Made by a program: the position numbers and the translations under genes. From a virus (taxonomy: Duplodnaviria > Caudoviricetes), in IMG/VR virus record IMGVR_UViG_3300021964_000086, positions 1 through 55,302 of that record: DNA of 55,302 nucleotides. The stretch is one strand, 5' to 3'. The notes under the pieces were generated by a model. The model saw nothing but the letters and a program-made list of their open reading frames with translations. It searched no databases and was not told the origin of the DNA. Numbering within the stretch: position 1 is the first letter of the stretch; each line of letters opens with the position of its first letter. Positions 10,889-39,834 of the stretch are shown here, piece after piece.

Positions 10889-12955
10889 TTAACCCCTTAC
10901 CTTTGAGGCTAGATCAGAATCCGCTTTGCCCCATGTACCACTTGATTTAGTCACGAAGCTGTTAACTCTTGCCATACCCCATTGTTGTGGAGTAGTGCCT
11001 GGTCTATGACCTGTTCTCCATGCAGCCATACCTCTGTTATAGACTTTCATCAATACACCATATGGCATACCAGACTTAGCTGCTTTCTTTTTTACGCCTT
11101 CGTTTTCAGATAACAACTCGTCAAACATCTCAGTTACAGTTTGATCTAGTTTAACTCGATACTCTGTGCCATATTGATCTTTGTATTGTTCAATTGTTTC
11201 GTCTAACTCTGACCATGCTTTGATGTCTTTGATTTCTTGTTCTACATCTTCACCAAATTTCTTTTTGAAAGCGATTGTATGTTTAGATGGTTTTGTTTTT
11301 CCACTTGCATCACCAGGTGCTGGTTTGTATGCTGCAGGATTGTCATCATCCATCTTTGTGCCTTTTTTGAAATGAGCATCTCTCGCTGACTTTGTAGATT
11401 TAGATTTGATACCAGAAAAATACTTAGCAGGTTGTGTACCTTCTTTATCTTTGATATCTGGATCTTGTGTTGCTTCGCCTTGTGCTCTTTTTAATTGATC
11501 TGGAGTAGGTGCGCCTTTCTCACCTTTCTTTCTCATTGTCTCGCCACGCTTTCTTTTCATATTAATATTATGCCATAAACCTTTTTCTTCAATTCCTTCT
11601 GGTACCATTTTTGATATCACATTAATCTTAGCATTAGCAATTGCTGCTCTTGTAGGAGCATCAAGATTCTTTAATAGTTTCTTAATCGCAGGTGTTACAT
11701 CTCTCTTAGTTTTCTTAGCCCAAACTTTTTTAAGGTTTGCTAATTGTTTATCTGAAAGTGTGCCTCTTAAAGATTCTTCTAAATCAACTTCTTCAAACTT
11801 TTGAAATTTTCTGTTATCAACAAACTTCGCATAGTCTCTTACTTGGCCAGGTGTTGTGATATTAAATTTTCTTTGTGTGTGTATTTGATTAGCGTTCTCA
11901 GGTCCTTGTGTCCAAGTATCTATACTTGCGATCTTAGGTTGACCTGGTGTTTCAATTGGTAGTTTTCTTGCTTTCTTCTCTGCCTTTTTAGTTTCTTTTT
12001 CTTCGTCATCTGTATTTTTTTGTTGACTATCTTTAGCAGAATTGATTTCCTCTTCAAAAGAAGAAAAAGATTTTAATTGACTACTATTCTTTTGTAACAC
12101 TAATTTCTTTTTATCTACATCCTCAACTTGTATTTCGCTGTCAATATTATTTGCTGGAATAATTTCATTCAACCATGCTTTTTCTACACCACCATCTTCC
12201 ATTTCGTATTGCACATAGTTTGGTCCTCGTTTAATAATTTTACCAACATTTCCATTGTTTGTATTTTCTACCATATCATGCATATTAAATATTTCATTGT
12301 TGTGATAATTTTCTCTAATCAATCGTAATTCATCATCTTCAGGTGCCATCGCTTCATTCACTCCCATACCCTTTTTTAAGTCTTTAAATAATTTCATAGC
12401 ATCTTTCTCCTTAGTGCCTGTAATAAGTCCTTGTTTGAAACTGGTAAAGTCATTTCTTGCAGCAAACTCTCTCATCTTACTCGCACTCATTCCTGTAGCG
12501 CCAGTAGCGTCTGGATCTCTTTCACCAGCACTTACAACCTCTGTTGTATCGAAATTATAATCTTTACCGTTATATTGTTTTATTAGCCTTTTAAATTCAG
12601 CAACTCGATCACTTCCTGCGATCATATAAACATCTGTATATCTTTTATCAAATCTATTTTTCAATATTTCCATAAATGTTCGTTCACTTCCAATTGCTGG
12701 TAATATCTGTATGCCTCTTGGATATAACTTTTTTAAATAATCCACTTTTTGTTTTACTGTTAATGGATTCTTTTTTTTATCCTGACTGGCACTTACATAT
12801 AGCACAGGTAGGCCTTTAACCCGTTTTGCTACTGTAATAATTCTTTCTATTAGTTTTTGGTGTCCAATGGTAGGTGGATTTAATCTACCAAATGCGAATA
12901 CCACGGGTTTACTTTTACCTGTATTCTTTCTTAATAGTTCTTTAAGTGTTTTCAT
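10889..12955 (-). CDS. HxGH-type nucleotidyltransferase (cytidylyltransferase/NMNAT-like) fused to multiple small C-terminal modules
   Basis: FGRLNPPTIGHQKL, GSDR, SAGERDPD, MSASKMR; about 480 aa modular tail. Confidence 0.85.
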   Translation of the reverse strand: MKTLKELLRKNTGKSKPVVFAFGRLNPPTIGHQKLIERIITVAKRVKGLPVLYVSASQDKKKNPLTVKQKVDYLKKLYPRGIQILPAIGSERTFMEILKNRFDKRYTDVYMIAGSDRVAEFKRLIKQYNGKDYNFDTTEVVSAGERDPDATGATGMSASKMREFAARNDFTSFKQGLITGTKEKDAMKLFKDLKKGMGVNEAMAPEDDELRLIRENYHNNEIFNMHDMVENTNNGNVGKIIKRGPNYVQYEMEDGGVEKAWLNEIIPANNIDSEIQVEDVDKKKLVLQKNSSQLKSFSSFEEEINSAKDSQQKNTDDEEKETKKAEKKARKLPIETPGQPKIASIDTWTQGPENANQIHTQRKFNITTPGQVRDYAKFVDNRKFQKFEEVDLEESLRGTLSDKQLANLKKVWAKKTKRDVTPAIKKLLKNLDAPTRAAIANAKINVISKMVPEGIEEKGLWHNINMKRKRGETMRKKGEKGAPTPDQLKRAQGEATQDPDIKDKEGTQPAKYFSGIKSKSTKSARDAHFKKGTKMDDDNPAAYKPAPGDASGKTKPSKHTIAFKKKFGEDVEQEIKDIKAWSELDETIEQYKDQYGTEYRVKLDQTVTEMFDELLSENEGVKKKAAKSGMPYGVLMKVYNRGMAAWRTGHRPGTTPQQWGMARVNSFVTKSSGTWGKADSDLASKVRG

Positions 12956-20127: not shown

Positions 20128-20156
20128 ATTATATCAGGTCTCCTATAGTTTGTCAA
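20128..20156 (-). promoter_or_regulatory. Early promoter (CCTGA family)
   Basis: TTGACA-12nt-CCTGA-TATAAT. Confidence 0.8.
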
Positions 20157-21267
20157 GGACTTTTTCATATATAGAATCCGCTATTGCTTTCATCATTAAC
20201 GGTGGTACCATTCTACCTATTCGTTCTGCCCTCTGATTCCATTTACCAGTTAACTTAAAATCGTCTGGCAAAGACATTATTCTTTTCAATTCACCCAAAG
20301 TTAGTTTTCGTGGTTCGTTCCAATGAAACGCCCCAGCATTTGTTTGCCCATTGCCCATTGCTGTTAGTGTAGGTGCTGGTGCATGTTGTGATACTCGTTT
20401 TAAATTGAAGTGATGACCCTTTGGATGATAGTCACCACCAGTTAAAACTTTGTCTGGATCTTTAGGCATCTTACTACCTGTGTCTTTCCAGTATGCTGTA
20501 TTCACAAATTTTTCAGTTAGTTCTTTTACTTCTTCAGAATCATATTCTAATCCTGCTAATGCTTCTTTCAAAGGTATAATCTTATCACTTGGTTCTGGAA
20601 ATACATTTTGTATTGTCATGAAATTTAAACCAACCTTTTCTGTAATATCGTTTCTTATACCAATAAAGATAACTCTTGTTCTTGTTTGAGATACACCATA
20701 GTTCTTACTGTTCATTACTTGCGAACAGACATCATAACCTATCTTCTCAAACTCATTTAATATTTTATTGTAATATTCTTTTGCTTCACCAATCGTTAGA
20801 CCTGCAACATTTTCTGCAACAATGACTTTTGGTCTAATATCATTGGCTACTCGTAGAAACTCAAAGAATAAGTCTTCAATGTTTTCTACCATCATACCAT
20901 CAGAGTATGATTTAGTTTTACCCCAACCATCAGAATGTTTACCACCTGATGAATGAGATAGTTTGCCTGCAACACTAAATGCACTACATGGTGGCGAACC
21001 ATCTAATATATCTATATCAGTTGTTCCTGCAATATCTGTAAAATCTTTACCAGATAGTTTTTTTATATCACCTGGTAGTATTGGTGTGTCTGGATAATTT
21101 TCTCTATATGTATTCTGTGCTTCTTCAACAAATTCGTTAATACAAAGTATCTTACCACCTGCCAATCTATAACCAGTAGAAGAACCACCGCCACCAGCAA
21201 ATGTAGAGATAACATTAAATCTTTCTCTCTTGCTTGATTCTACAACATCTTTTAAATTATACATCAT
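20143..21267 (-). CDS. C5-cytosine methyltransferase-fold enzyme, probable DNA carboxymethyltransferase (paralog 1)
   Basis: FAGGGG, GSPPCSAFS, ENV, QTRTR; motif X reads ERIGRMVPP (Arg replaces the conserved Asn). Confidence 0.85.
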   Translation of the reverse strand: MMYNLKDVVESSKRERFNVISTFAGGGGSSTGYRLAGGKILCINEFVEEAQNTYRENYPDTPILPGDIKKLSGKDFTDIAGTTDIDILDGSPPCSAFSVAGKLSHSSGGKHSDGWGKTKSYSDGMMVENIEDLFFEFLRVANDIRPKVIVAENVAGLTIGEAKEYYNKILNEFEKIGYDVCSQVMNSKNYGVSQTRTRVIFIGIRNDITEKVGLNFMTIQNVFPEPSDKIIPLKEALAGLEYDSEEVKELTEKFVNTAYWKDTGSKMPKDPDKVLTGGDYHPKGHHFNLKRVSQHAPAPTLTAMGNGQTNAGAFHWNEPRKLTLGELKRIMSLPDDFKLTGKWNQRAERIGRMVPPLMMKAIADSIYEKVLDKL

Positions 21268-21656
21268 ACAAAAAAACCTTCTAAAGTAAGTTGTGTTTCT
21301 TTTTTTATTCCTTTTCGTTGTTCGTGTAATTCATGACCTTTATGCATTTCTTTATTTTCGTATGTTTCTATAACATGACAATTCTTACAAAGAACTTTAC
21401 ATTTTCGTATTTCGTCTTTCAATTCTTTCATTCTTTCTTTGTGTAATGTAGTTCCATATTTTGGTATTCTGCTTACTAACACACCCATACCACTACCAAC
21501 AGGTCCATTCTTATACATGTAGTAAGATTTTTGAGTAGGATCTATGTGTGCAAAATCTAGAGCAAGACCGTGTTTATTATAGCCACAAACAGAACAACCT
21601 TTTAAAGTTTTATAATGCCAAAGTTTTCTAGTAAGTCTTTTTCTATATTCCATCAT
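21264..21656 (-). CDS. HNH-type Zn-binding endonuclease
   Basis: CSVCG...LDFAHIDP...EIRKCKVLCKNCH. Confidence 0.8.
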   Translation of the reverse strand: MMEYRKRLTRKLWHYKTLKGCSVCGYNKHGLALDFAHIDPTQKSYYMYKNGPVGSGMGVLVSRIPKYGTTLHKERMKELKDEIRKCKVLCKNCHVIETYENKEMHKGHELHEQRKGIKKETQLTLEGFFV

Positions 21657-24124
21657 GCGAAAAAATCCTCTATTGTATTACTGTCAGAAGCGTCTATCTT
21701 CCAATTGATAGCGTCAAGTATAAATCGTAAAGGTTCCATAAATGATTTTGTAAACTGTTGTTCGTAATCTATGAGACCGTGCATTTCAAATTCTTTAGGT
21801 AATTTTGCCATAAAGGTAATGACATTGGCATTCCACATATTCTTTCGTAAATGTACAAACTTACCTTTATCACCTTCATAGAATTGTTGAAACTTATGTG
21901 AAACTTTTTTTGTTTTAAGTAAATGATTATATAACAATGCACCTTTCACATGCATTGGTGTGCCTTTCTTGTAGATAGATGTGCTGTCACCATATTTCTT
22001 TACACCATTCACACTACGAGGAAACGCAATGTCTTCTGGTGGCAATAGTTCAAACTCTCTACGAAAGTTTACAATAAACTCTTTCATTTCTTTTTGATCA
22101 CCACCCATAATAACTTTAAAACTTTCTTTGAGTTTATCTCTACATGGTAAAGGTGTTGATGTCTTTACTGCTTCAATGCCCATAATCTTTAGTTTTGGTT
22201 CTGGATATTGAACACCCTCTGAATTATGAACATTCAGAATATATCTTTTCTTCGCTGTCCAGATACCTTTGTCTGCAATTGCCTCTCGTTTCATAACCAT
22301 TTTGTGTTCGAATACATTCATATATTTAGCAAGTTCTTGATACGCCTTATCAATAAATGGTTCTAGTTTTTGAGCACAGAATTGATCTAATGCTTTTACA
22401 ATTTTTTTCTTATCAGTTGCACCAGACATTTTAACAAGTGGTGCCATGTTGATATAAACGGAATCTGTATCTGAAGCAATAATGTAATCTTCATTATCTG
22501 TTTTGTATAGTTTATTAAAATATTGATTTAGTTTTTTCTCTATCCAACGAATATTCAATTGACCAGAAGTTGTAATCGCCTCTGCCATTCTGTGATCGTA
22601 ATATCTAAAGTATTTGTTACCAATCGCACCATAGGCACTATTAAGAGAAATCTTTTTGGAATGTTGAACAAGATAATATCGTCTTGCTAGTTTTTCATAC
22701 TTAGGATCTTTTGTGTTAGCATATTGTTGTTCTGCCTCGAGCATTTTCTTTTTATAAACAGTTCTATCGTTATATTCTTTTTGTATGATACGAGGTAAGA
22801 AACCTTGTTTATCTGTTTTATACATTGTGCCATTAGCAGCCACACAATTACTATCAGAGGTATCTACTTCTTTATCTAACAAATCATTAATGTCAATATT
22901 CTTTTTGTCTGGTAAAATTGTTTCAGGTGAAATATTATATTGCATAATCAAATGCGGATATAGTGAATTCAAATCAAAAGACACAACCCAATCATGGAAA
23001 CCTACTTTAGGATCTTTTACATAAGCGCCAACCAATTCTGGTGAAGTAGGATTCATATCACGCATTGGCACAATGATATTATCTTTTAGTAGTTCATTGA
23101 ATATAATTGTATCCCACATTCTAACTTGTGAGAATACATCTTCATAGTTTGCCTTGGCGTTATATGACATTGTCAATGCCAATTCAATAAGTTGTAATCT
23201 GTCTTCTAGTTTATCAACAAGTTCAACATCTTGTATATTATAATCAATAAAAGATTGTATATCCTGTTGATACCATTCTTTGAAAGTATCATATGGATTA
23301 TCATCTTTTTGTTCGCCAAGTTCGACTTTACCAATATGATCTAGTCGATAACTTTCTTGATTCTTAATTGTAAATTTACGATAGAGTTGTAGGTAGTCAA
23401 GTTGAGCAATACCTAGTAATCTAAAATATGTTTGTGTTTTACCTTGTTCGTAAGTTTCATCTTGTTGTATAATATTCCAAGGCGACATGCGTTTCATAGA
23501 ACCTTCGCCTAGTATTTTGCCCATGCGTTTTACTAGATAAGGAATATCAAAGTATTTACTATTCCAACCAGTAAGAACATCTGGAGTATATGTTTGCCAA
23601 AATTTTAAAAACTGTTTAAGTAAATCTCGTTCATTTTCGCATTTTATATAATGGACATTTTTTTGTTTTATTGTATAGTCTGCCATACCCCAAACTAATA
23701 TTTGTTTTTTAACTTGATCTTTTACAGTAATACAGATCATCTTTTCAGCACAGTCTTCTACATTAGGAAAACCATGTTCACTTTCAACCTCAATATCAAT
23801 TGTGTAAATACGAATTTTATCTTTATCGTATTCTACATTACCTGGCCAATAGTCTGCCATGTATTGATATTGAAATCTATCTGTGCCGTGAATGAAGTTT
23901 GGATGTTCTTCGTATCGTTTGATTGCCTGTCTGGCTTCTTTGATTGATTTATATGATTTAGATTCTAGACCAATGCCTGTTAAAGATTTATAACGACCTT
24001 TACCTTTTGTAGGTATGTAAAGGCGAGGAACATAAGGAACACGATCCTCGCATCTTTTACCATTGTCGATATATCTAACAAGTAACTCATCGCCATAAGG
24101 CGACACATTGGTGTAAAAATTCAT
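21653..24124 (-). CDS. gp43: Family B DNA polymerase
   Basis: DIEVES exo I, GWNSKYFD, YNIQDV, SFDLNSLYPH, KISLNSAYGA, ASDTDS, KKRY, C-terminal TIEDFF. Confidence 0.98.
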   Translation of the reverse strand: MNFYTNVSPYGDELLVRYIDNGKRCEDRVPYVPRLYIPTKGKGRYKSLTGIGLESKSYKSIKEARQAIKRYEEHPNFIHGTDRFQYQYMADYWPGNVEYDKDKIRIYTIDIEVESEHGFPNVEDCAEKMICITVKDQVKKQILVWGMADYTIKQKNVHYIKCENERDLLKQFLKFWQTYTPDVLTGWNSKYFDIPYLVKRMGKILGEGSMKRMSPWNIIQQDETYEQGKTQTYFRLLGIAQLDYLQLYRKFTIKNQESYRLDHIGKVELGEQKDDNPYDTFKEWYQQDIQSFIDYNIQDVELVDKLEDRLQLIELALTMSYNAKANYEDVFSQVRMWDTIIFNELLKDNIIVPMRDMNPTSPELVGAYVKDPKVGFHDWVVSFDLNSLYPHLIMQYNISPETILPDKKNIDINDLLDKEVDTSDSNCVAANGTMYKTDKQGFLPRIIQKEYNDRTVYKKKMLEAEQQYANTKDPKYEKLARRYYLVQHSKKISLNSAYGAIGNKYFRYYDHRMAEAITTSGQLNIRWIEKKLNQYFNKLYKTDNEDYIIASDTDSVYINMAPLVKMSGATDKKKIVKALDQFCAQKLEPFIDKAYQELAKYMNVFEHKMVMKREAIADKGIWTAKKRYILNVHNSEGVQYPEPKLKIMGIEAVKTSTPLPCRDKLKESFKVIMGGDQKEMKEFIVNFRREFELLPPEDIAFPRSVNGVKKYGDSTSIYKKGTPMHVKGALLYNHLLKTKKVSHKFQQFYEGDKGKFVHLRKNMWNANVITFMAKLPKEFEMHGLIDYEQQFTKSFMEPLRFILDAINWKIDASDSNTIEDFFA

Positions 24125-32503: not shown

Positions 32504-32532
32504 ATGCTATCAGGTCTTGATCTATTTGTCAA
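32504..32532 (-). promoter_or_regulatory. Early promoter (CCTGA family)
   Basis: TTGACA-12nt-CCTGA-TAGCAT. Confidence 0.75.
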
Positions 32533-32589
32533 GGACAAAAAACTCTTATTTTTCAAGGGTTTAAGCAGGGTGCGACAATCCGCACACCC

Positions 32590-33273
32590 CTATTTTATCG
32601 CAATAACCCCATAAAAATTGAAGTTTTGCCAGAAAACATGTAAATCCTTGAAACCTGCGTCTTCACACATTTTAAACATTTCTGTTTTTGTGTTTGGTTT
32701 CATCATATGTCGTAATTGGACCTCTTTGTCTAAAATCTCTGTATCTGTAAAATGTTGTCTTTTATAATCATAATACATAAAAGTCATCATATCTTGAATT
32801 TTAGGATTACAACTAAAACTTTTTTCTGAGAAGATAAACGCACCACCATCATTCAAACCTTGATAAATTTTCCAGATTGTTCCTGCTCGATCTTTAGGTG
32901 GCATAAATTGTAATGTAAATAAAGAAGTCACTAAACTAGCATTTTCTATATCACATTGTCTAATGTCTTCCATTTTATAATAAAGATTATTCCATTCTGA
33001 TGATACCAGATCCTCTGCGTGACCATCAGCAAAATCTGATTCTATCTCTATACCAACATAAGTGGCATATGGCACATGTTCATTATTTTGTTTGATCATT
33101 GCCTTAAGCATTTTACCAGAACTACAACCTAGATCAACAACATTGGTATGATCTTCAACAAAATACTTAGACATGCTTACGACATCATGCCAGAGATTAT
33201 TATAACCTCTTACTGATTTTTCTATGTGGTTATCAAAACCTTCGCCTGCTGTTGCAAATGTAAATTTCGTCAT
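32590..33273 (-). CDS. cmoA: CmoA-like carboxy-S-adenosylmethionine synthase
   Basis: F..HI.KSV.GY, DLGCSSG, DIENAS, FTLQF, KIYQGLNDGGAFIFSEK, QNFNF match E. coli CmoA blocks as recalled; start MTKFTF (ATGA overlap). Confidence 0.85.
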   Translation of the reverse strand: MTKFTFATAGEGFDNHIEKSVRGYNNLWHDVVSMSKYFVEDHTNVVDLGCSSGKMLKAMIKQNNEHVPYATYVGIEIESDFADGHAEDLVSSEWNNLYYKMEDIRQCDIENASLVTSLFTLQFMPPKDRAGTIWKIYQGLNDGGAFIFSEKSFSCNPKIQDMMTFMYYDYKRQHFTDTEILDKEVQLRHMMKPNTKTEMFKMCEDAGFKDLHVFWQNFNFYGVIAIK

Positions 33274-34070
33274 ACTGCCTTTCCCCAATACTGACATATT
33301 CCTGCTACGGACTTATATCTGTTATTTGGATTTATTCTACTATTATTTAGCAATGTTTCAAATCGCTTGTCTATTCCTGCACCTAATTGTAAATTAATAT
33401 GTTTCTTGAAATTAAACTTCTTAAATTCAATAAAGTCATTTACGACATGATGCTTCTGGAATGGTTCATTCAACTCATACCAATTCTTACTGTAAAAGAA
33501 ATCTCTTACTGCTTTCGATAGATATGGTGTAATAAATTTTTTATTGTGTTTATCTGCAACACCTTTGTGCCATAGATAACCAGCAGACTTATCTGGTAAA
33601 AAATAATCATTTCTAAATTCATCAAACTTTTCTTTTGTCTTGCCTTTTGTGTAATGTAGTATTGCTCTTTTTGATATACCATAATAACCATCAGCTGCCC
33701 AACCACTCAATACATCATTTTGTTTTATCTCTGGATACAAATACATAAATGGAAATACACACTCAAAATGTGTTTTCTTTTTACAGTTATAATCTTTTGC
33801 TAATCTAAAAAAGTCTTCTTCTAAATTATTCGTTGGTACCACTTTCAATGTAAATGGCCACTTAAATATTTGTGCCACCTCAGCAGCCTTATCACTATCA
33901 TAACTAGAATTTGTATCTAAACAAAAAGAATAGGCATGAACTTTCTTTCCTAACTCGTGTGCTGCAAAAGCAACACTTAAACTATCTACACCACCAGATA
34001 GTAATACAGCAACTTCATCTTCTTTTGATTGTGCTTCGATAACTCTTTTTAGTATTTGTCTAATCACCAT
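33270..34070 (-). CDS. Asparagine-synthetase-C-terminal-like ATP-dependent amide ligase (no glutaminase domain)
   Basis: PP-loop VAVLLSGGVDS, LSGWAADGYYG, TPYL. Confidence 0.8.
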   Translation of the reverse strand: MVIRQILKRVIEAQSKEDEVAVLLSGGVDSLSVAFAAHELGKKVHAYSFCLDTNSSYDSDKAAEVAQIFKWPFTLKVVPTNNLEEDFFRLAKDYNCKKKTHFECVFPFMYLYPEIKQNDVLSGWAADGYYGISKRAILHYTKGKTKEKFDEFRNDYFLPDKSAGYLWHKGVADKHNKKFITPYLSKAVRDFFYSKNWYELNEPFQKHHVVNDFIEFKKFNFKKHINLQLGAGIDKRFETLLNNSRINPNNRYKSVAGICQYWGKAV

Positions 34071-34963
34071 TAAAACCCTGGAAGTGTTGCTCCACTATTA
34101 ACTAATTTTTTAACTGCGGCATTGCGTGAATTTGCACCAGTCATTAACATTAATTTTTCTTCCACAACTTCAAATATTCCTGTGCCGTATTCCATTACTG
34201 TTCTTTTTACTTTGTTTGGTTCATAACCCATGTATTTTATTACTTCTTTTGGAAAAGTTTTTTTATGTGGTTCTGCATAACTATAATGTAAATCATTAAC
34301 CCACCTTAATATATCTGGATTTTTAAAAGCCATAATTGGGTTTGCACCAAGTTCATTAGCAACTTCTAAAAACAAATGTCCTGAACCTTTTTTTGCACCT
34401 TTTGATTGTATTGCCTCTGCGTAATAATTTTGTTTAAGAATTGTTTTAGCAGTATCTTTATCTACATTATGTTCTTTCATTGCTTGAGGTGTTAATCTAT
34501 ACATAAAGGTTTGTAGAGAACCTAGCAGTGTATCTGCACCATCGCCTTGAATTAAATCAACACCTTTAACATCAATTTTTTCAAGACACAATTTAAATGT
34601 TAAATAATATACTACATTAAATAGTGTTGTGATACTTTGATGTCCTTTAATTAAATGTAAGTTATCCATTACTTCTTCTAATGTGGTCAAAACAAGTTTA
34701 TTATTAATACCTAATTTTTCTGCTGTGTCTTGTGACACTTTAACATCATGAGTATCCTTAACTACACCTACTGTAATTGAATCTTTTAAACCAAAATATT
34801 TTTTTGCTATACAACCCAACAACATTGAATCAACTCCACCTGATAACATTAAGACAGGAGGTTTGTTTTTAAATTTTCTATCTCGATTAATAATAAATTT
34901 CAAATCATTAATCAACTTTATGGCACCTTCTTCGTAAGTATCAAATTTAATTATTTCTCTCAT
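34070..34963 (-). CDS. Second asparagine-synthetase-like amide ligase
   Basis: PP-loop LMLSGGVDS, IQGDGADTLLG. Confidence 0.8.
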   Translation of the reverse strand: MREIIKFDTYEEGAIKLINDLKFIINRDRKFKNKPPVLMLSGGVDSMLLGCIAKKYFGLKDSITVGVVKDTHDVKVSQDTAEKLGINNKLVLTTLEEVMDNLHLIKGHQSITTLFNVVYYLTFKLCLEKIDVKGVDLIQGDGADTLLGSLQTFMYRLTPQAMKEHNVDKDTAKTILKQNYYAEAIQSKGAKKGSGHLFLEVANELGANPIMAFKNPDILRWVNDLHYSYAEPHKKTFPKEVIKYMGYEPNKVKRTVMEYGTGIFEVVEEKLMLMTGANSRNAAVKKLVNSGATLPGF

Positions 34964-34969
34964 TTTGTT

Positions 34970-36088
34970 TTATAATCTCCTTAAAACATTCTCATATATG
35001 TTGTTAGATAATGCTTTCATCATTAGTGGTGCAACCATACGACCAACTCTTTCTGCTTGTTGATCAAAATCCCCTTGTAATTTAAAGTCATCTGGTAAAC
35101 CCATTACTCTCTTTAATTCTTTAATTGTTAATTTACGATTACTGTCATAATGAAACACACCAGACAGACCTTTCTTTTGCCCTGCCTGTGTAAGTGTTGG
35201 GCAAGGTAGATCAGGTGCTGGTCGTATCATATTAAACATAGATTGTTTAGGATTGATATCTATAAATTCAGGATCACTAGGTTTTCTATGTTTGTCTGGA
35301 CTGAAAGGTAATAACTCAATCCACTTCTTTTGAAAACTACCTTGCACAAAATCTAATAACATTTGTACTTCTTCAGGATCGTTTTCTAAATCTTCTATTG
35401 CTTCTCTTAATGTTGGTTGTTTTGATTGTGGTTCTGGATATATGATACTATCCATATTCATAAAGTTAATACCAACTTTCTCCATGATATCATTTCTAAC
35501 TGCAACGAAGAAACATCTCTTTCTTGCCTGTGGTGTTCCATAGTCTGCGGCGTTTAACACTTTACCAACTGCTTCATAACCAATACTATCAAATTCATTT
35601 ACAATACGATTAAAATATTCTTTTGCCTTACCCATGGTGATACCCGCAACATTCTCACCAATGATAACTTTTGCCTGAACATCTTTTGCAACTCTTGTAA
35701 ACTCAAAGAATAGGTCTTCAATGTTATCAACTTGTTTATCGTCTGAATACTTTTTAGTTTTATCCCAACCCTTTTCTCTTTTGCCTGCAACACTAAAAGC
35801 ACTACAAGGTGGCGAACCATCAAGTATATCTAACTCGCCTTGTTGTATTCCTGCGGCCTTGAGTAAATCATGACCAGTCAGTTCTTTAATATCGTTAGGT
35901 AATATTGGCGTATCAGGATAATTAGATTTATATGTATCAATTGCACTTTCAACAAATTCATTAACTGCAAGTATATTACCACCTGCAAGTTTATAACCTG
36001 TTGAAGACCCACCACCTCCTGCAAATGTTGATATTACAGTAAATAGTTTGCGATCTGCTGATTTATATACATCTTCTAAAAAATACAT
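34970..36088 (-). CDS. C5-cytosine methyltransferase-fold enzyme, probable DNA carboxymethyltransferase (paralog 2)
   Basis: FAGGGG, GSPPCSAFS, ENV, PQARKR; motif X ERVGRMVAP. Confidence 0.87.
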   Translation of the reverse strand: MYFLEDVYKSADRKLFTVISTFAGGGGSSTGYKLAGGNILAVNEFVESAIDTYKSNYPDTPILPNDIKELTGHDLLKAAGIQQGELDILDGSPPCSAFSVAGKREKGWDKTKKYSDDKQVDNIEDLFFEFTRVAKDVQAKVIIGENVAGITMGKAKEYFNRIVNEFDSIGYEAVGKVLNAADYGTPQARKRCFFVAVRNDIMEKVGINFMNMDSIIYPEPQSKQPTLREAIEDLENDPEEVQMLLDFVQGSFQKKWIELLPFSPDKHRKPSDPEFIDINPKQSMFNMIRPAPDLPCPTLTQAGQKKGLSGVFHYDSNRKLTIKELKRVMGLPDDFKLQGDFDQQAERVGRMVAPLMMKALSNNIYENVLRRL

Positions 36089-36094
36089 AATGTG

Positions 36095-36123
36095 AGTATA
36101 TCAGGTTATTACAGATTTGTCAA
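36095..36123 (-). promoter_or_regulatory. Early promoter of the modification operon (leaderless)
   Basis: TTGACA-12nt-CCTGA-TATACT-6nt-ATG. Confidence 0.8.
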
Positions 36124-36396
36124 GGACGAAAAAGTCTTTAGTTTTTCACGCTTTTTCTTCACCCTTGTCTCAATATCTTCATATTTTACTAACCCCTTTT
36201 CTTCAAGTAATTGCAACATACACATAACATCACCTGCTTCTTTTGTAAGATTTTGTAAGGCATCTGTGTCAAATTGAGGTTGAGTACCAAATCTTACGAT
36301 TTTCATACATTCTTGGGTTAGTTCACCACATTCTTCAGCCATAATGGCAAGAAGTTCTGTTCGTTCTTGTACTGTCATTTTGGGTCTAAGTTTCAT
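36109..36396 (-). CDS. MazG-like nucleotide pyrophosphohydrolase
   Basis: MAEECGELTQ...KEAGDV. Confidence 0.75.
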   Translation of the reverse strand: MKLRPKMTVQERTELLAIMAEECGELTQECMKIVRFGTQPQFDTDALQNLTKEAGDVMCMLQLLEEKGLVKYEDIETRVKKKREKLKTFSSLTNL

Positions 36397-39148: not shown

Positions 39149-39697
39149 TTACATAAAAAATTCTAATTTAGTAATCTTCTTTCTTTTAAGTTTAGGTTTA
39201 TCTTTCTTTACTGGTTCTTCTTCTATAATCATATTCTTTCTTAAAAAGTCAGCATATGAATTTTGATATTCTTCGTTATCACCTTCTTGTCTAACTATTT
39301 CATCAAGACCTGATTTAAGTATAAGTTTTTGTTTAATTGTTGTTTGTTTCTTTTCTTTTTGTATTCTTCTTATAAATGCATAATATATAATTTGTGTAAA
39401 ATATGCAAAAGGATTACTTGATTTCTCTGGATCAAAATTTGCTACATAAGTTAAACAATTTTCTATACCATCAGATATCATATCTTCTTTGTATGTGTAG
39501 TTTATAAAATTTGGTCTGTAAGATAAGTGATTTGCAATCTTTAAAAAACATTCACCTATGTAATCGCTAATGGGTGGATCTTTTCTATTTCTATTTCTTG
39601 CGGATAATACTTTCTTACGATACTTTTTCATTTCTTCTAGAAATTTTTTATTATCTACATAATGCTCTGTCTTTTTTCTTTTCAATTGTACAGTCAT
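39149..39697 (-). CDS. gp55: Late-transcription sigma factor
   Basis: HYVDNKKF, YIGECFLKIA..LS.RPNF..Y..EDMISDGIENC, NPFAYFTQI. Confidence 0.96.
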   Translation of the reverse strand: MTVQLKRKKTEHYVDNKKFLEEMKKYRKKVLSARNRNRKDPPISDYIGECFLKIANHLSYRPNFINYTYKEDMISDGIENCLTYVANFDPEKSSNPFAYFTQIIYYAFIRRIQKEKKQTTIKQKLILKSGLDEIVRQEGDNEEYQNSYADFLRKNMIIEEEPVKKDKPKLKRKKITKLEFFM

Positions 39698-39720: not shown

Positions 39721-39749
39721 ATTCTATCAGGATATAGTATATTTGTCAA
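39721..39749 (-). promoter_or_regulatory. Early promoter of gp55-47-46 (CCTGA family)
   Basis: TTGACA-12nt-CCTGA-TAGAAT. Confidence 0.8.
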
Positions 39750-39805
39750 GGGTTATATACAAGATTTTGTAAAATAATTTTTTTTGATTTTTTTGAATTT
39801 TTTTC

Positions 39806-39834
39806 TTGACAAATGACATTTTGCCTTGTATAAT
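39806..39834 (+). promoter_or_regulatory. Perfect sigma70 promoter on the antisense strand
   Basis: TTGACA-17nt-TATAAT preceded by T-tracts. Confidence 0.75.

What the first reader, a model, noticed from the sequence alone, without database searches (positions are those of the whole stretch)
32590..36123. Cytosine carboxymethylation/hypermodification operon: Cx-SAM synthase, Arg-switched C5-MTase and two amide ligases
Seen: one promoter drives four tightly packed genes, namely a C5-MTase-fold enzyme, two PP-loop Asn-synthetase-like proteins lacking glutaminase domains, and a CmoA homolog. The MTase keeps the catalytic PC and ENV motifs, but motif X reads GRMV instead of GN(A/S)V. Established: CmoA makes carboxy-SAM from SAM and prephenate, and a basic residue at this motif-X Asn (engineered M.MpeI N374K) makes a C5-MTase transfer carboxymethyl groups. 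Inference: the phage writes 5-carboxymethylcytosine and then amidates the carboxyl with amines or amino acids as anti-restriction camouflage. I recall a recent report of a similar CmoA/CmoX/CmoY trio in a Synechococcus phage (verify), so the core may be known. Two divergent ligases in tandem suggest a two-step or branched, probably undescribed base.
Basis: partly seen in the sequence, partly recalled or inferred. Interest (0 to 1): 0.93.

Follow-up and report, generated by a model that had tools for sequence, protein, structure and literature searches.

The report
Phage carboxymethylcytosine operon with extra ligase
A marine T4-like phage carries the recently described gene set that puts a carboxymethyl group on DNA cytosines and caps it with glycine, plus a second, very different ligase and a second transferase that hint at a further, still undescribed DNA base.

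Summary
Four tightly packed minus-strand genes follow a repeated promoter-like motif. They are a C5-methyltransferase-fold enzyme with SPPC, ENV and GRMV motifs, two glutaminase-less PP-loop ligases, and a CmoA homologue.

The core is already published (PMC12783734): CmoA, CmoX and CmoY of Synechococcus phage S-B43 make 5-carboxymethylcytosine and then its glycine amide. The window's proteins are clear orthologues:
- CmoX matches PDB 8YF3 at E 1.7e-114, with Arg350 kept.
- CmoY is 48% identical to SpCmoY.
- CmoA is 54% identical to SpCmoA.

The new element is the 297-aa ligase "L1" (34070-34963). It is only a remote full-length paralogue of CmoY (hhalign 93.5%, 20% identity).
- L1 is absent from the closest relative's otherwise identical operon and from 80 of 80 sampled CmoX loci.
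- It recurs beside CmoY, CmoX and CmoA in other T4-like lineages and in an unrelated polA-type phage.
- All 14 loci where L1 lies beside Cmo genes also hold CmoY.

I infer that L1 adds a second amide, most likely on the glycyl carboxylate. This is untested.

A second CmoX paralogue lies at 20143-21267.

Verdict: a new variant of a known kind, of moderate interest.

The parts
36099..36126 (-). Promoter-like motif TCCTTGACAAAT-N9-CCTGATA (contains TTGACA-17-TATACT), inside the 3' end of the MazG-like gene and 10 nt upstream of the CmoX1 ATG region
   Evidence: best consensus site, 11 of 12; 5 copies of the extended motif in the window against 0.02 expected; sequence.
34970..36088 (-). CmoX1: cytosine C5-carboxymethyltransferase homologue (372 aa) with SPPC, ENV and GRMV (Arg350)
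   Evidence: PF00145 E 6.8e-54; 8YF3 SpCmoX E 1.7e-114; motifs invariant. The residues the paper names (F25, E47, F48, D69, C98, R350) are all identical in the alignment.
34070..34963 (-). L1: 297-aa PP-loop (SGGVDS) adenylating ligase of a separate family. It is a remote paralogue of CmoY and has no glutaminase domain.
   Evidence: weak Asn_synthase and NAD_synthase matches. BLAST against CmoY finds only the PP-loop region; hhalign 93.5%, 225 columns; family size; genomic context.
33270..34070 (-). CmoY orthologue (266 aa): ATP-dependent 5cxmC-glycine amide ligase homologue
   Evidence: 48% identity to SpCmoY, E 1e-81. S-B43, S-B05 and RB11-B are the best phage hits; 38 family-invariant columns are kept.
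32590..33297 (-). CmoA homologue (Cx-SAM synthase). The probable true start is the ATG at 33273 (227 aa).
   Evidence: 54% identity to SpCmoA. TIGR00740 E 8.8e-37; the only PDB hits are CmoA structures. ATGA overlap, the same junction as in L023.
32508..32535 (-). Next perfect copy of the promoter-like motif, in the 98-nt gap before the CobT-like gene. It marks the end of the four-gene unit.
20143..21267 (-). CmoX2: second carboxymethyltransferase-type paralogue (374 aa) with SPPC, ENV and IGRMV. It lies between the DNA polymerase and the UvsX-like gene.
   Evidence: phrog_116; sequence; 54% identity to CmoX1; 8YF3 E 7e-148; two PF00145 hits in the record.

Best explanation
**The locus.** It is a CmoA/CmoX/CmoY-type DNA cytosine hypermodification operon in an HTVC008M-like marine T4-type myophage.

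**The pathway.**
- CmoA converts SAM plus prephenate to carboxy-SAM.
- CmoX1, and the unlinked paralogue CmoX2, use a motif-X arginine to hold the cofactor's carboxylate. They transfer a carboxymethyl group to C5 of cytosines in duplex DNA, probably in two different short sequence contexts.
- CmoY adenylates that carboxylate and joins glycine, giving 5-glycylcarboxymethylcytosine.
- These steps are inferred from close homology to enzymes that were assayed in phage S-B43.

**The fourth gene.** L1 is a second ATP-dependent PP-loop amide ligase of a distinct family, acquired as an accessory insertion.
- My preferred reading is that it acts after CmoY. It would adenylate the new free carboxylate of the glycyl group and cap it with ammonia or another amine.
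- The final base would then be a neutral or extended amide that has not been described.
- This last step is inference from gene context only.

**Confidence by part.**
- Core pathway: about 0.9.
- L1 belongs to this pathway: about 0.65.
- L1 acts after CmoY: about 0.4.
For: **Core pathway.**
- CmoX1 matches the SpCmoX crystal structure chain 8YF3 at E 1.7e-114. SPPC, ENV and all cofactor-contact residues named in the paper are conserved, including Arg350.
- CmoY is 48% identical to SpCmoY. CmoA is 54% identical to SpCmoA.
- The paper shows wild-type SpCmoX accepts only Cx-SAM, and that SpCmoY needs ATP and glycine.

**L1 is a competent adenylating enzyme.**
- The PP-loop SGGxDS, the GDGAD motif and a C-terminal Lys (K235) are invariant across 16 family members.
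- S, D, S of the loop and the Lys are still invariant in 25 remote members.

**L1 is related to CmoY over its whole length.** hhalign gives 93.5% probability, E 2e-7, over 225 columns.

**L1 is linked to the system across deep divergence.**
- L1-CmoY-CmoX-CmoA is found in L004-L009 and L020 (L1 55-73% identical).
- L114 has L1 43%, CmoY 41% and CmoX 35% identical, with the Arg kept.
- The order CmoY-L1-CmoX-CmoA is found in L120, a polA/primase/ParB phage whose L1 is only 29% identical.
- In the L1 tree, CmoY-adjacent members sit at three or more separate places, including the deepest branch.

**Dependence on CmoY.**
- All 14 loci in which L1 lies beside a Cmo gene also hold CmoY. These are the window, L004-L010, L012, L020, L105, L107, L114 and L120.
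- Only 43 of 80 sampled CmoX loci hold CmoY.
- CmoY is not altered by L1's presence. The window's CmoY is 89% identical to that of L023, which has no L1. CmoY from L1-bearing loci keeps all family-invariant residues.

**Chemistry.** The CmoY product carries a free carboxylate, the substrate type of this enzyme class.
Against: - No biochemical, mass-spectrometric or transcript data exist for this phage.
- 16 of 37 other L1-family loci have no Cmo gene in the DNA held. L109 has 10 kb on either side. There L1 sits among replication or baseplate genes. These contigs are fragments (5-11% complete for the five checked), so absence of Cmo genes elsewhere cannot be judged. The data equally do not show co-occurrence.
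- The 14 co-occurring loci represent only about 7 independent lineages.
- L1 is absent from 80 of 80 of the CmoX loci closest to the window. It is also absent from 5 large CmoX-bearing records that are 33-90% complete. The system therefore works without it.
- Nothing computed here distinguishes 'after CmoY' from 'in parallel with CmoY'.
- The amine is unknown.
- The CmoA NCBIfam score is below the curated cut-off (127 against 193 bits).
- Host assignment rests only on 65.6% identity of the gp46-like protein to HTVC008M.
Confidence: 0.55

Rival explanations
1. Branched pathway. L1 competes with CmoY for the same 5cxmC carboxylate and attaches a different amine. It might do so preferentially at the sites written by one of the two CmoX paralogues. 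The genome would then carry two different amide bases.
For: - L1 and CmoY are full-length remote paralogues, so they may bind the same DNA base.
- The window has two CmoX paralogues with divergent central regions.
- The paper notes ligase clusters with distinct active-site residues and proposes alternative amines.
- L1 has an acidic residue (GDGAD) where CmoY has a hydrophobic one (GWAAD/GIGAD).
Against: - No locus with L1 plus CmoX but without CmoY was found (0 of 14). An independent alternative ligase should sometimes occur alone with CmoX.
- L1 occurs with either CmoX subtype, so it is not paired with one paralogue.
Confidence: 0.2
2. L1 is unrelated to DNA base modification. It would be a phage PP-loop enzyme acting on a tRNA, a nucleotide or a small molecule (NAD-synthetase-like, QueC-like or TilS-like) that merely sits in a variable genomic island.
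For: - 16 of 37 L1-family loci show no Cmo gene nearby.
- L1 also matches NAD_synthase weakly (E 3.6e-6).
- The gp46-to-CobT interval is a variable island with many architectures.
Against: - L1 is immediately adjacent to CmoY, with overlapping or abutting ORFs, in 12 of the 14 L1-plus-Cmo loci. The two exceptions are L010 (3.8 kb away) and L107 (about 220 nt away).
- This includes L120, a non-T4 phage at 29% identity with the gene order flipped.
Its PDB matches cover the N-terminal part only.
Confidence: 0.15
3. L1 is a non-catalytic or scaffolding partner. For example, it could tether CmoY to the replisome through L1's conserved C-terminal tail.
For: - 28 of 34 L1 homologues end in LP[IVL] or LPG[FL].
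- The window's CmoY, unlike 38 of 56 homologues, has no C-terminal tail.
Against: - The PP-loop, GDGAD and the catalytic-type Lys are invariant in the family. This argues for catalysis.
- No interaction test could be run.
Confidence: 0.05
4. The C5-MTase-fold enzymes are ordinary SAM-dependent 5mC methyltransferases, and the CmoA homologue serves tRNA modification.
For: Pfam and NCBIfam name them only as DNA_methylase/dcm. PHROGs calls the CmoA family 'tRNA methyltransferase'.
Against: - Arg replaces the motif-X Asn in both paralogues.
- Wild-type SpCmoX, 52-61% identical, accepts only Cx-SAM.
- A CmoB partner was not looked for, so its presence or absence in the window was not tested.
- CmoA is translationally coupled to CmoY.
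Confidence: 0.03

Closest known systems
CmoA/CmoX/CmoY system of Synechococcus phage S-B43 (Yang et al., Nat Commun 2025, PMC12783734; structure 8YF3)
   Same: - All three enzyme families are present, with 48-54% identity by BLASTP.
- The same catalytic and cofactor-binding residues are kept, including Arg350.
- The ligase is glutaminase-less.
- A MazG-like gene lies just upstream in both phages.
- Both are T4-like marine myophages.
   Different: - Gene order is CmoX-L1-CmoY-CmoA here and CmoA-CmoY-CmoX in S-B43.
- The window has an extra ligase family, L1. It found no hit in the S-B43 record or in any isolated phage except weak Listeria contig hits.
- The window has a second, unlinked CmoX paralogue. 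CmoX2, not the operon's CmoX1, is the closer relative of SpCmoX (E 7e-148 against 1.7e-114).
- The backbone is pelagiphage-like, not cyanophage-like.
Engineered M.MpeI N374K carboxymethyltransferase (cited in PMC12783734; not read here)
   Same: A basic residue at the motif-X Asn position lets a C5-MTase fold use Cx-SAM (paper's Discussion).
   Different: It is an engineered Lys rather than a natural Arg. It is CG-specific, whereas SpCmoX is GC-specific. The specificity of the window's enzymes is unknown.
Asparagine synthetase B / beta-lactam synthetase / carbapenam synthetase C-terminal (PP-loop) domains
   Same: - The best PDB sequence matches of the L1 profile are 1CT9 (E 0.0015), 1JGT and 1Q15.
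- L1 shares the SGGxDS loop and the G-x-G-[AS]-D motif.
- The adenylate-then-amine chemistry is shared, from established knowledge of the family.
   Different: - There is no N-terminal glutaminase domain.
- Only about 120 residues align.
- The substrate is presumably a DNA base side chain, not a free amino acid.
Bacterial CmoA/CmoB tRNA cmo5U34 pathway
   Same: CmoA is homologous over its full length to solved CmoA structures 1IM8, 4IWN and 4GEK (E 1e-28 to 4e-30).
   Different: The Cx-SAM consumer is a DNA C5-MTase-fold enzyme, not CmoB. The NCBIfam score is below the equivalog cut-off.

Membership tests
CmoX (DNA cytosine C5-carboxymethyltransferase) | C5-MTase fold with the SPPC catalytic motif (paper's search criterion) | tested here: met
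   PF00145 E 6.8e-54. S92-P93-P94-C95 is invariant in alignment A2. CmoX2 also has SPPC.
CmoX (DNA cytosine C5-carboxymethyltransferase) | Arg at the position of SpCmoX R350, replacing the motif-X Asn (paper's search criterion) | tested here: met
   GRMV aligns with SpCmoX VGRMV in the 8YF3 alignment. CmoX2 has IGRMV.
CmoX (DNA cytosine C5-carboxymethyltransferase) | Cx-SAM contact residues F25, E47, F48 and D69 of SpCmoX | tested here: met
   They are identical at the aligned positions F22, E44, F45 and D66.
CmoX (DNA cytosine C5-carboxymethyltransferase) | Transfers carboxymethyl from Cx-SAM and not methyl from SAM | not testable with these tools
   This needs an enzyme assay or nucleoside LC-MS.
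CmoA (Cx-SAM synthase) | Full-length homology to characterised CmoA | tested here: met
   54% identity to SpCmoA. The only PDB hits are CmoA structures. TIGR00740 is matched over 14-239 of 239 positions.
CmoA (Cx-SAM synthase) | Score above the NCBIfam equivalog cut-off | tested here: not met
   127 bits against a 193.3-bit cut-off. The model was built for bacterial enzymes. The assayed SpCmoA was not scored here.
CmoY (5cxmC-glycine ligase), for the 266-aa protein | Close homology to SpCmoY, a PP-loop and no glutaminase domain | tested here: met
   48% identity, E 1e-81. SGGVDS is present. Only the N-terminal part of the Asn_synthase profile is matched. 38 invariant columns are shared.
CmoY (5cxmC-glycine ligase), for the 266-aa protein | Active-site residues that bind the glycine carboxylate (paper's Supplementary Fig. 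8) | not tested
CmoY, for L1 (297 aa) | Sequence-level membership of the SpCmoY cluster (the paper's SSN at about 30% identity) | tested here: not met
   - BLASTP against the window's CmoY gives E 0.02 over 17 residues.
- Against SpCmoY it gives 27% over 113 residues.
- The CmoY-invariant C-x-K-K-T-x-x-E-C motif is absent.
- Only a profile-profile relationship is seen.
- L1 is a separate family that probably works like CmoY.
Asparagine synthetase B family, for L1 | N-terminal glutamine amidotransferase domain plus a full synthetase domain | tested here: not met
   There is no GATase hit. PF00733 is matched only at profile positions 17-147 of 354. TIGR01536 scores 43 bits against a 267-bit cut-off.

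The most novel reading that the evidence does not exclude
L1 defines a second step of cytosine hypermodification. After CmoY makes 5-glycylcarboxymethylcytosine, L1 adenylates the glycyl carboxylate and adds ammonia or another amine. The result would be a not yet described base, such as a glycinamide or dipeptide-like side chain on C5.

Both ligase families may also be delivered to newly made DNA by C-terminal tails that resemble the sliding-clamp-binding tails of gp43, gp55 and gp33. The two CmoX paralogues would widen the set of modified sequence contexts.
Probability: 0.35. Interest if true: 0.75.

Novelty: new variant of a known kind. Interest (0 to 1): 0.55.

Why it matters
The CmoA/CmoX/CmoY pathway was published only in December 2025. 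That paper ends by asking what other amides phages build on the carboxymethyl handle.

This locus gives a concrete, cheap test case.
- The well-conserved accessory ligase family has 128 homologues at E <= 0.001 in the word-indexed search. All those with a listed source are metagenomic, and none was found in an isolated phage.
- It travels with CmoY in unrelated phages.
- It predicts a new nucleoside mass when co-expressed in E. coli.

If confirmed, it would:
- add a second enzymatic step and probably a new natural DNA base;
- supply a new ligase for DNA functionalisation;
- show that pelagiphage-like viruses, among the most abundant in the ocean, hypermodify cytosine.

If L1 does nothing to DNA, the locus is simply one more of the thousands of Cmo loci the paper already counted.

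Tried and rejected
**Unproductive searches.**
- Megablast of the locus against isolated phages found nothing.
- tblastn of L1 against isolated phages gave only 27%-identity hits to unannotated Listeria phage contigs, taken as generic PP-loop similarity.

**Does the 'lone L1' clade have a hidden CmoY or CmoX?**
- The 268-aa neighbour in L013 is not CmoY-like (hhalign probability 0.2%).
- HMMs of L1, CmoY and CmoX found nothing extra in the L1 loci L003-L022 and L103-L120.
- Pfam shows the neighbours are gp59, gp32, gp44, gp45, RNase H, lysozyme, gp5, gp6 and gp53.
- Whole-record searches of five such contigs found no CmoX, but the contigs are 5-11% complete.

**Remote L1-like proteins.**
- An alignment of 25 was too diverse for a locus search.
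- A 4-sequence subset found nothing in viral or genome contigs.
- P0132 alone found nothing.
- P0272 gave the informative locus L120.
- The cluster look-up gave no useful names.

**Other.**
- The ESM Atlas gave only Asn_synthase-type viral clusters and holds no structure for L1.
- I first typed the promoter motif with the wrong spacer and got 0 hits. The corrected pattern was run.
- GpC is not depleted (observed/expected 1.02), so composition gives no hint of target specificity.
- No intrinsic terminator was found.

**No verdict.** A complex prediction for CmoY with L1 could not be run, so there is no result either way.

**Supplementary files.** Those of PMC12783734 were not open. Supplementary Fig. 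8 and the SSN data may already contain the L1 family as an unnamed ligase cluster.

Full report
**1. What is there**

The window is an entire 55,302-base viral record that CheckV estimates at 38% complete. All large ORFs lie on the minus strand. They encode T4-type replication and structural proteins: DNA polymerase, clamp loader, DnaB-like helicase, major head protein, terminase and tail sheath.

The gp46-like nuclease subunit is 65.6% identical to that of Pelagibacter phage HTVC008M. It is 51% identical to Methylophilales phage Melnitz and about 46% to cyanomyophages. The phage is therefore an HTVC008M-like marine myovirus. The host is only inferred.

Their junctions are a 6-nt gap, a TAATG overlap, and an ATGA overlap if CmoA starts at 33273. 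That junction sequence is the same in the closest relative.

The unit is bracketed by two perfect copies of a longer promoter-like motif, TCCTTGACAAAT-N9-CCTGATA, at 36126-36099 and 32535-32508.
- The motif occurs five times in the window against 0.02 expected.
- The plain sigma-70 consensus count is not above shuffles (41 against 41.8).
- The evidence for a promoter is therefore the repeated extended motif, not the consensus match.
- No terminator-like site was found.

**2. The core is the published Cmo system**

I read the Results and Discussion of Yang et al. (PMC12783734). They show that in Synechococcus phage S-B43:
- SpCmoA makes carboxy-SAM.
- SpCmoX is a C5-MTase homologue whose Arg350 replaces the motif-X Asn and contacts the cofactor carboxylate. 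It writes 5-carboxymethylcytosine at GC sites and accepts only Cx-SAM.
- SpCmoY is an asparagine-synthetase-like ligase that adds glycine with ATP.
- Virion DNA carries the glycyl amide.

The authors counted 5,615 candidate CmoX, 4,257 CmoA and 2,251 ligase sequences.

The window's 372-aa protein matches the SpCmoX crystal chain 8YF3 at E 1.7e-114. The next best match is M.HaeIII at 2e-23. SPPC, ENV, GRMV and the named contact residues (F25, E47, F48, D69, C98, R350) are all identical at the aligned positions.

The 266-aa protein is 48% identical to SpCmoY. The 235-aa protein is 54% identical to SpCmoA. At E <= 0.001 it finds only the three solved CmoA structures in the PDB. Its NCBIfam score is below the equivalog cut-off.

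Neither ligase has a glutaminase domain.

**3. The extra ligase, L1**

*3a. A separate family.* The 297-aa protein is not a recent duplicate of CmoY.
- BLASTP finds only the PP-loop.
- Profile-profile comparison relates the two families over 225 columns at 20% identity (probability 93.5%, E 2e-7).

*3b. Size and conservation of the family.*
- The word-indexed search gave 128 homologues at E <= 0.001. The sources listed are metagenomic collections.
- The exhaustive profile search gave 544 hits at E <= 0.001, 47 at <= 1e-10 and 20 at <= 1e-30 among 50% cluster representatives.
- SGGxDS, GDGAD and a C-terminal P-x-x-K lysine are invariant. This fits an active adenylating enzyme.
- The best solved relatives are only AsnB-type synthetase domains at E 0.0015 and worse.

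*3c. An accessory gene.*
- The closest relative, L023, has gp46, MazG, CmoX, CmoY, CmoA and CobT at 89, 67, 91, 89, 79 and 67% identity. Its CmoX abuts CmoY directly, and there is no L1.
- None of the 80 best CmoX loci, out of 438 found in IMG/VR, holds L1 or any other SGGxDS ORF within the held flanks.
- Five large CmoX-bearing records also lack it. The positive control on the window's own record scored 1e-151.

*3d. Recurrent linkage to the system.* I examined 37 further L1 loci: 20 viral and 17 metagenomic, of which L116 appears to duplicate L021.
- 11 have CmoY immediately downstream and 1 has it 3.8 kb away.
- 16 have no Cmo gene although at least 1 kb of downstream flank is held.
- 9 are too short to tell.
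- Linked cases include L114 (L1 43% identical, CmoX 35% with SPPC and GRSV).
- They also include L120, found through a remote L1-like protein (29% identity). L120 is a family-A-polymerase/primase/ParB phage with the order ParB-CmoY-L1-CmoX-CmoA.
- In the L1 tree, CmoY-adjacent members occupy three or more separate positions, including the deepest branch.

Every one of the 14 loci where L1 lies beside a Cmo gene also has CmoY.

*3e. Mosaic origin.*
- The window's L1 is 73% identical to the L1 of L004-L006. The CmoY, CmoX1 and CmoA of those loci are only 59, 50 and 54% identical to the window's.
- The unlinked CmoX2 is 73-74% identical to the CmoX of L004-L006.
- I infer that an L023-like CmoX1-CmoY-CmoA operon received L1, and perhaps CmoX2, from an L004-like lineage.

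**4. Mechanism**

*Shown elsewhere and transferred by homology:* Cx-SAM synthesis, C5 carboxymethylation and glycine ligation.

*Inferred here:* L1 is a second amide ligase of the same pathway.

I favour action after CmoY for three reasons.
- The CmoY product presents a new free carboxylate.
- L1 is never seen with CmoX in the absence of CmoY.
- CmoY is unchanged by L1's presence: it is 89% identical to the CmoY of L1-less L023, and all family invariants are kept.

L1 has an acidic residue in the G-x-G-A-D motif where CmoY has a hydrophobic one, and it lacks CmoY's invariant C-x-K-K-T-x-x-E-C motif. A different nucleophile is therefore likely. From memory, the corresponding AsnB residue is a glutamate near the ammonia exit. 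That makes ammonia a candidate, but this is a lead and not a test.

The branched alternative and a non-DNA role remain open. The 16 'lone' L1 loci are the main evidence against my reading. They are uninformative rather than contradictory, because the five such contigs checked are 5-11% complete.

**5.

A second CmoX paralogue lies at 20143-21267.
- It is 374 aa long and 54% identical to CmoX1, with SPPC, ENV and IGRMV.
- It is closer to SpCmoX than CmoX1 is (8YF3 E 7e-148).

Tandem or paired CmoX paralogues are common. 15 of the 80 sampled loci hold two CmoX genes. The two genes probably have different target motifs. This is not mentioned in the paper's main text.

**6. A lead: C-terminal tails on the ligases**

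In this window the pattern [LI][EDNQ].[FL][FLM].?$ occurs at the C-terminus of only 3 of 59 ORFs of at least 100 aa:
- the DNA polymerase (…TIEDFFA);
- the gp55-like sigma factor (…KLEFFM);
- a 130-aa gp33-sized ORF (…TLEGFFV).

In T4, the hydrophobic-acidic C-termini of gp43, gp55 and gp33 are the gp45 sliding-clamp ligands (passages of PMC2988020).

Tails in the Cmo proteins:

| Protein | Homologues with complete 3' ends | Acidic-hydrophobic tail | TLF-type tail | LP[IVL] or LPG[FL] tail | None |
|---|---|---|---|---|---|
| CmoY | 56 | 24 | 13 | 1 (SpCmoY itself, GTLPL) | 18 |
| L1 | 34 | 0 | 0 | 28 (window: ATLPGF) | 6 |
| CmoX | 100 | 0 | 0 | 0 | 100 |

The window's own CmoY and that of L023 have no tail. 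The ligases may therefore be recruited to the clamp. This is untested, and the paper's main text does not mention clamp or C-termini.

**7. Verdict**

The finding is real and correctly read. Its core is already known. The locus is a new variant through an accessory second ligase family, with a second transferase elsewhere in the genome.

Only PMC12783734 uses the name CmoY in this sense in the searched library. Only two papers combine carboxy-SAM, bacteriophage and DNA modification. I therefore found no description of a two-ligase Cmo locus.

Noticed in passing
window 20143-21267 (-): A second CmoX-type carboxymethyltransferase paralogue lies between the DNA polymerase and the UvsX-like gene. 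It has SPPC and IGRMV, is 54% identical to CmoX1, and is closer to SpCmoX than CmoX1 is. It is 73-74% identical to the CmoX of L004-L006, the same level as L1 to their L1.
   Followed up: yes
window 21653-24124, 39149-39697, 21264-21656, 34070-34963; loci L004-L120: The CmoY and L1 families often carry short C-terminal tails after a variable linker. Examples are TLEEFFV, SLDQFLT and RTLFD for CmoY, and xLPI for L1. They resemble the clamp-binding C-termini of this phage's gp43, gp55-like and gp33-sized proteins. CmoX never carries such a tail (0 of 100). This suggests the ligases may be recruited to the sliding clamp.
   Followed up: partly
window 20132-20159, 32508-32535, 36099-36126, 39725-39752 (all -), 39803-39830 (+): The extended promoter-like motif TCCTTGACAAAT-N9-CCTGATA occurs five times against 0.02 expected. 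It is probably this phage's early-promoter consensus. Several copies sit inside the 3' end of the preceding gene.
   Followed up: partly
loci L023-L102 (interval between gp46 and CobT homologues): The gp46-to-CobT interval is a variable island. About 18 loci have CmoX alone, with no CmoA and no ligase, so they would depend on host Cx-SAM. 15 of 80 loci have two CmoX paralogues, usually in the order CmoY-CmoX-CmoX'-CmoA. 43 of 80 have CmoY.
   Followed up: partly
L002 (Erwinia phage pEa_SNUABM_23) 980-5858: A CmoY-like ligase (36% identical) sits with a CmoA-like methyltransferase (26%), a DUF1611 protein and an Ala_racemase_N-like protein. No CmoX was detected at E <= 1e-5. This may be a different amino-acid-based modification pathway in Alexandravirus jumbo phages.
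   Followed up: no
window 36109-36396 (-): A MazG-like pyrophosphohydrolase lies directly upstream of CmoX1. The same is seen in L023 and L028, and a 'pyrophosphatase' lies two genes upstream of cmoA in S-B43. The link to the pathway is unknown, and MazG is common in marine myophages.
   Followed up: no
window 21264-21656 (-): A 130-aa ORF with no Pfam match ends in TLEGFFV and overlaps the CmoX2 start. Its size and tail fit a gp33-like late-transcription co-activator.
   Followed up: no
window 32590-33297 (-): The longest CmoA ORF overlaps CmoY by 28 nt. The ATG at 33273 gives an ATGA stop-start overlap that is conserved in L023, and it matches the N-terminus of SpCmoA better.
   Followed up: yes
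whole window: CpG is depleted (observed/expected 0.61), while GpC, the target of SpCmoX, is not (1.02).
   Followed up: no
window 10889-12955 (-): A 688-aa protein matches PHROG families annotated as cytidyltransferase (phrog_3041, E 3e-148). It was not examined further.
   Followed up: no
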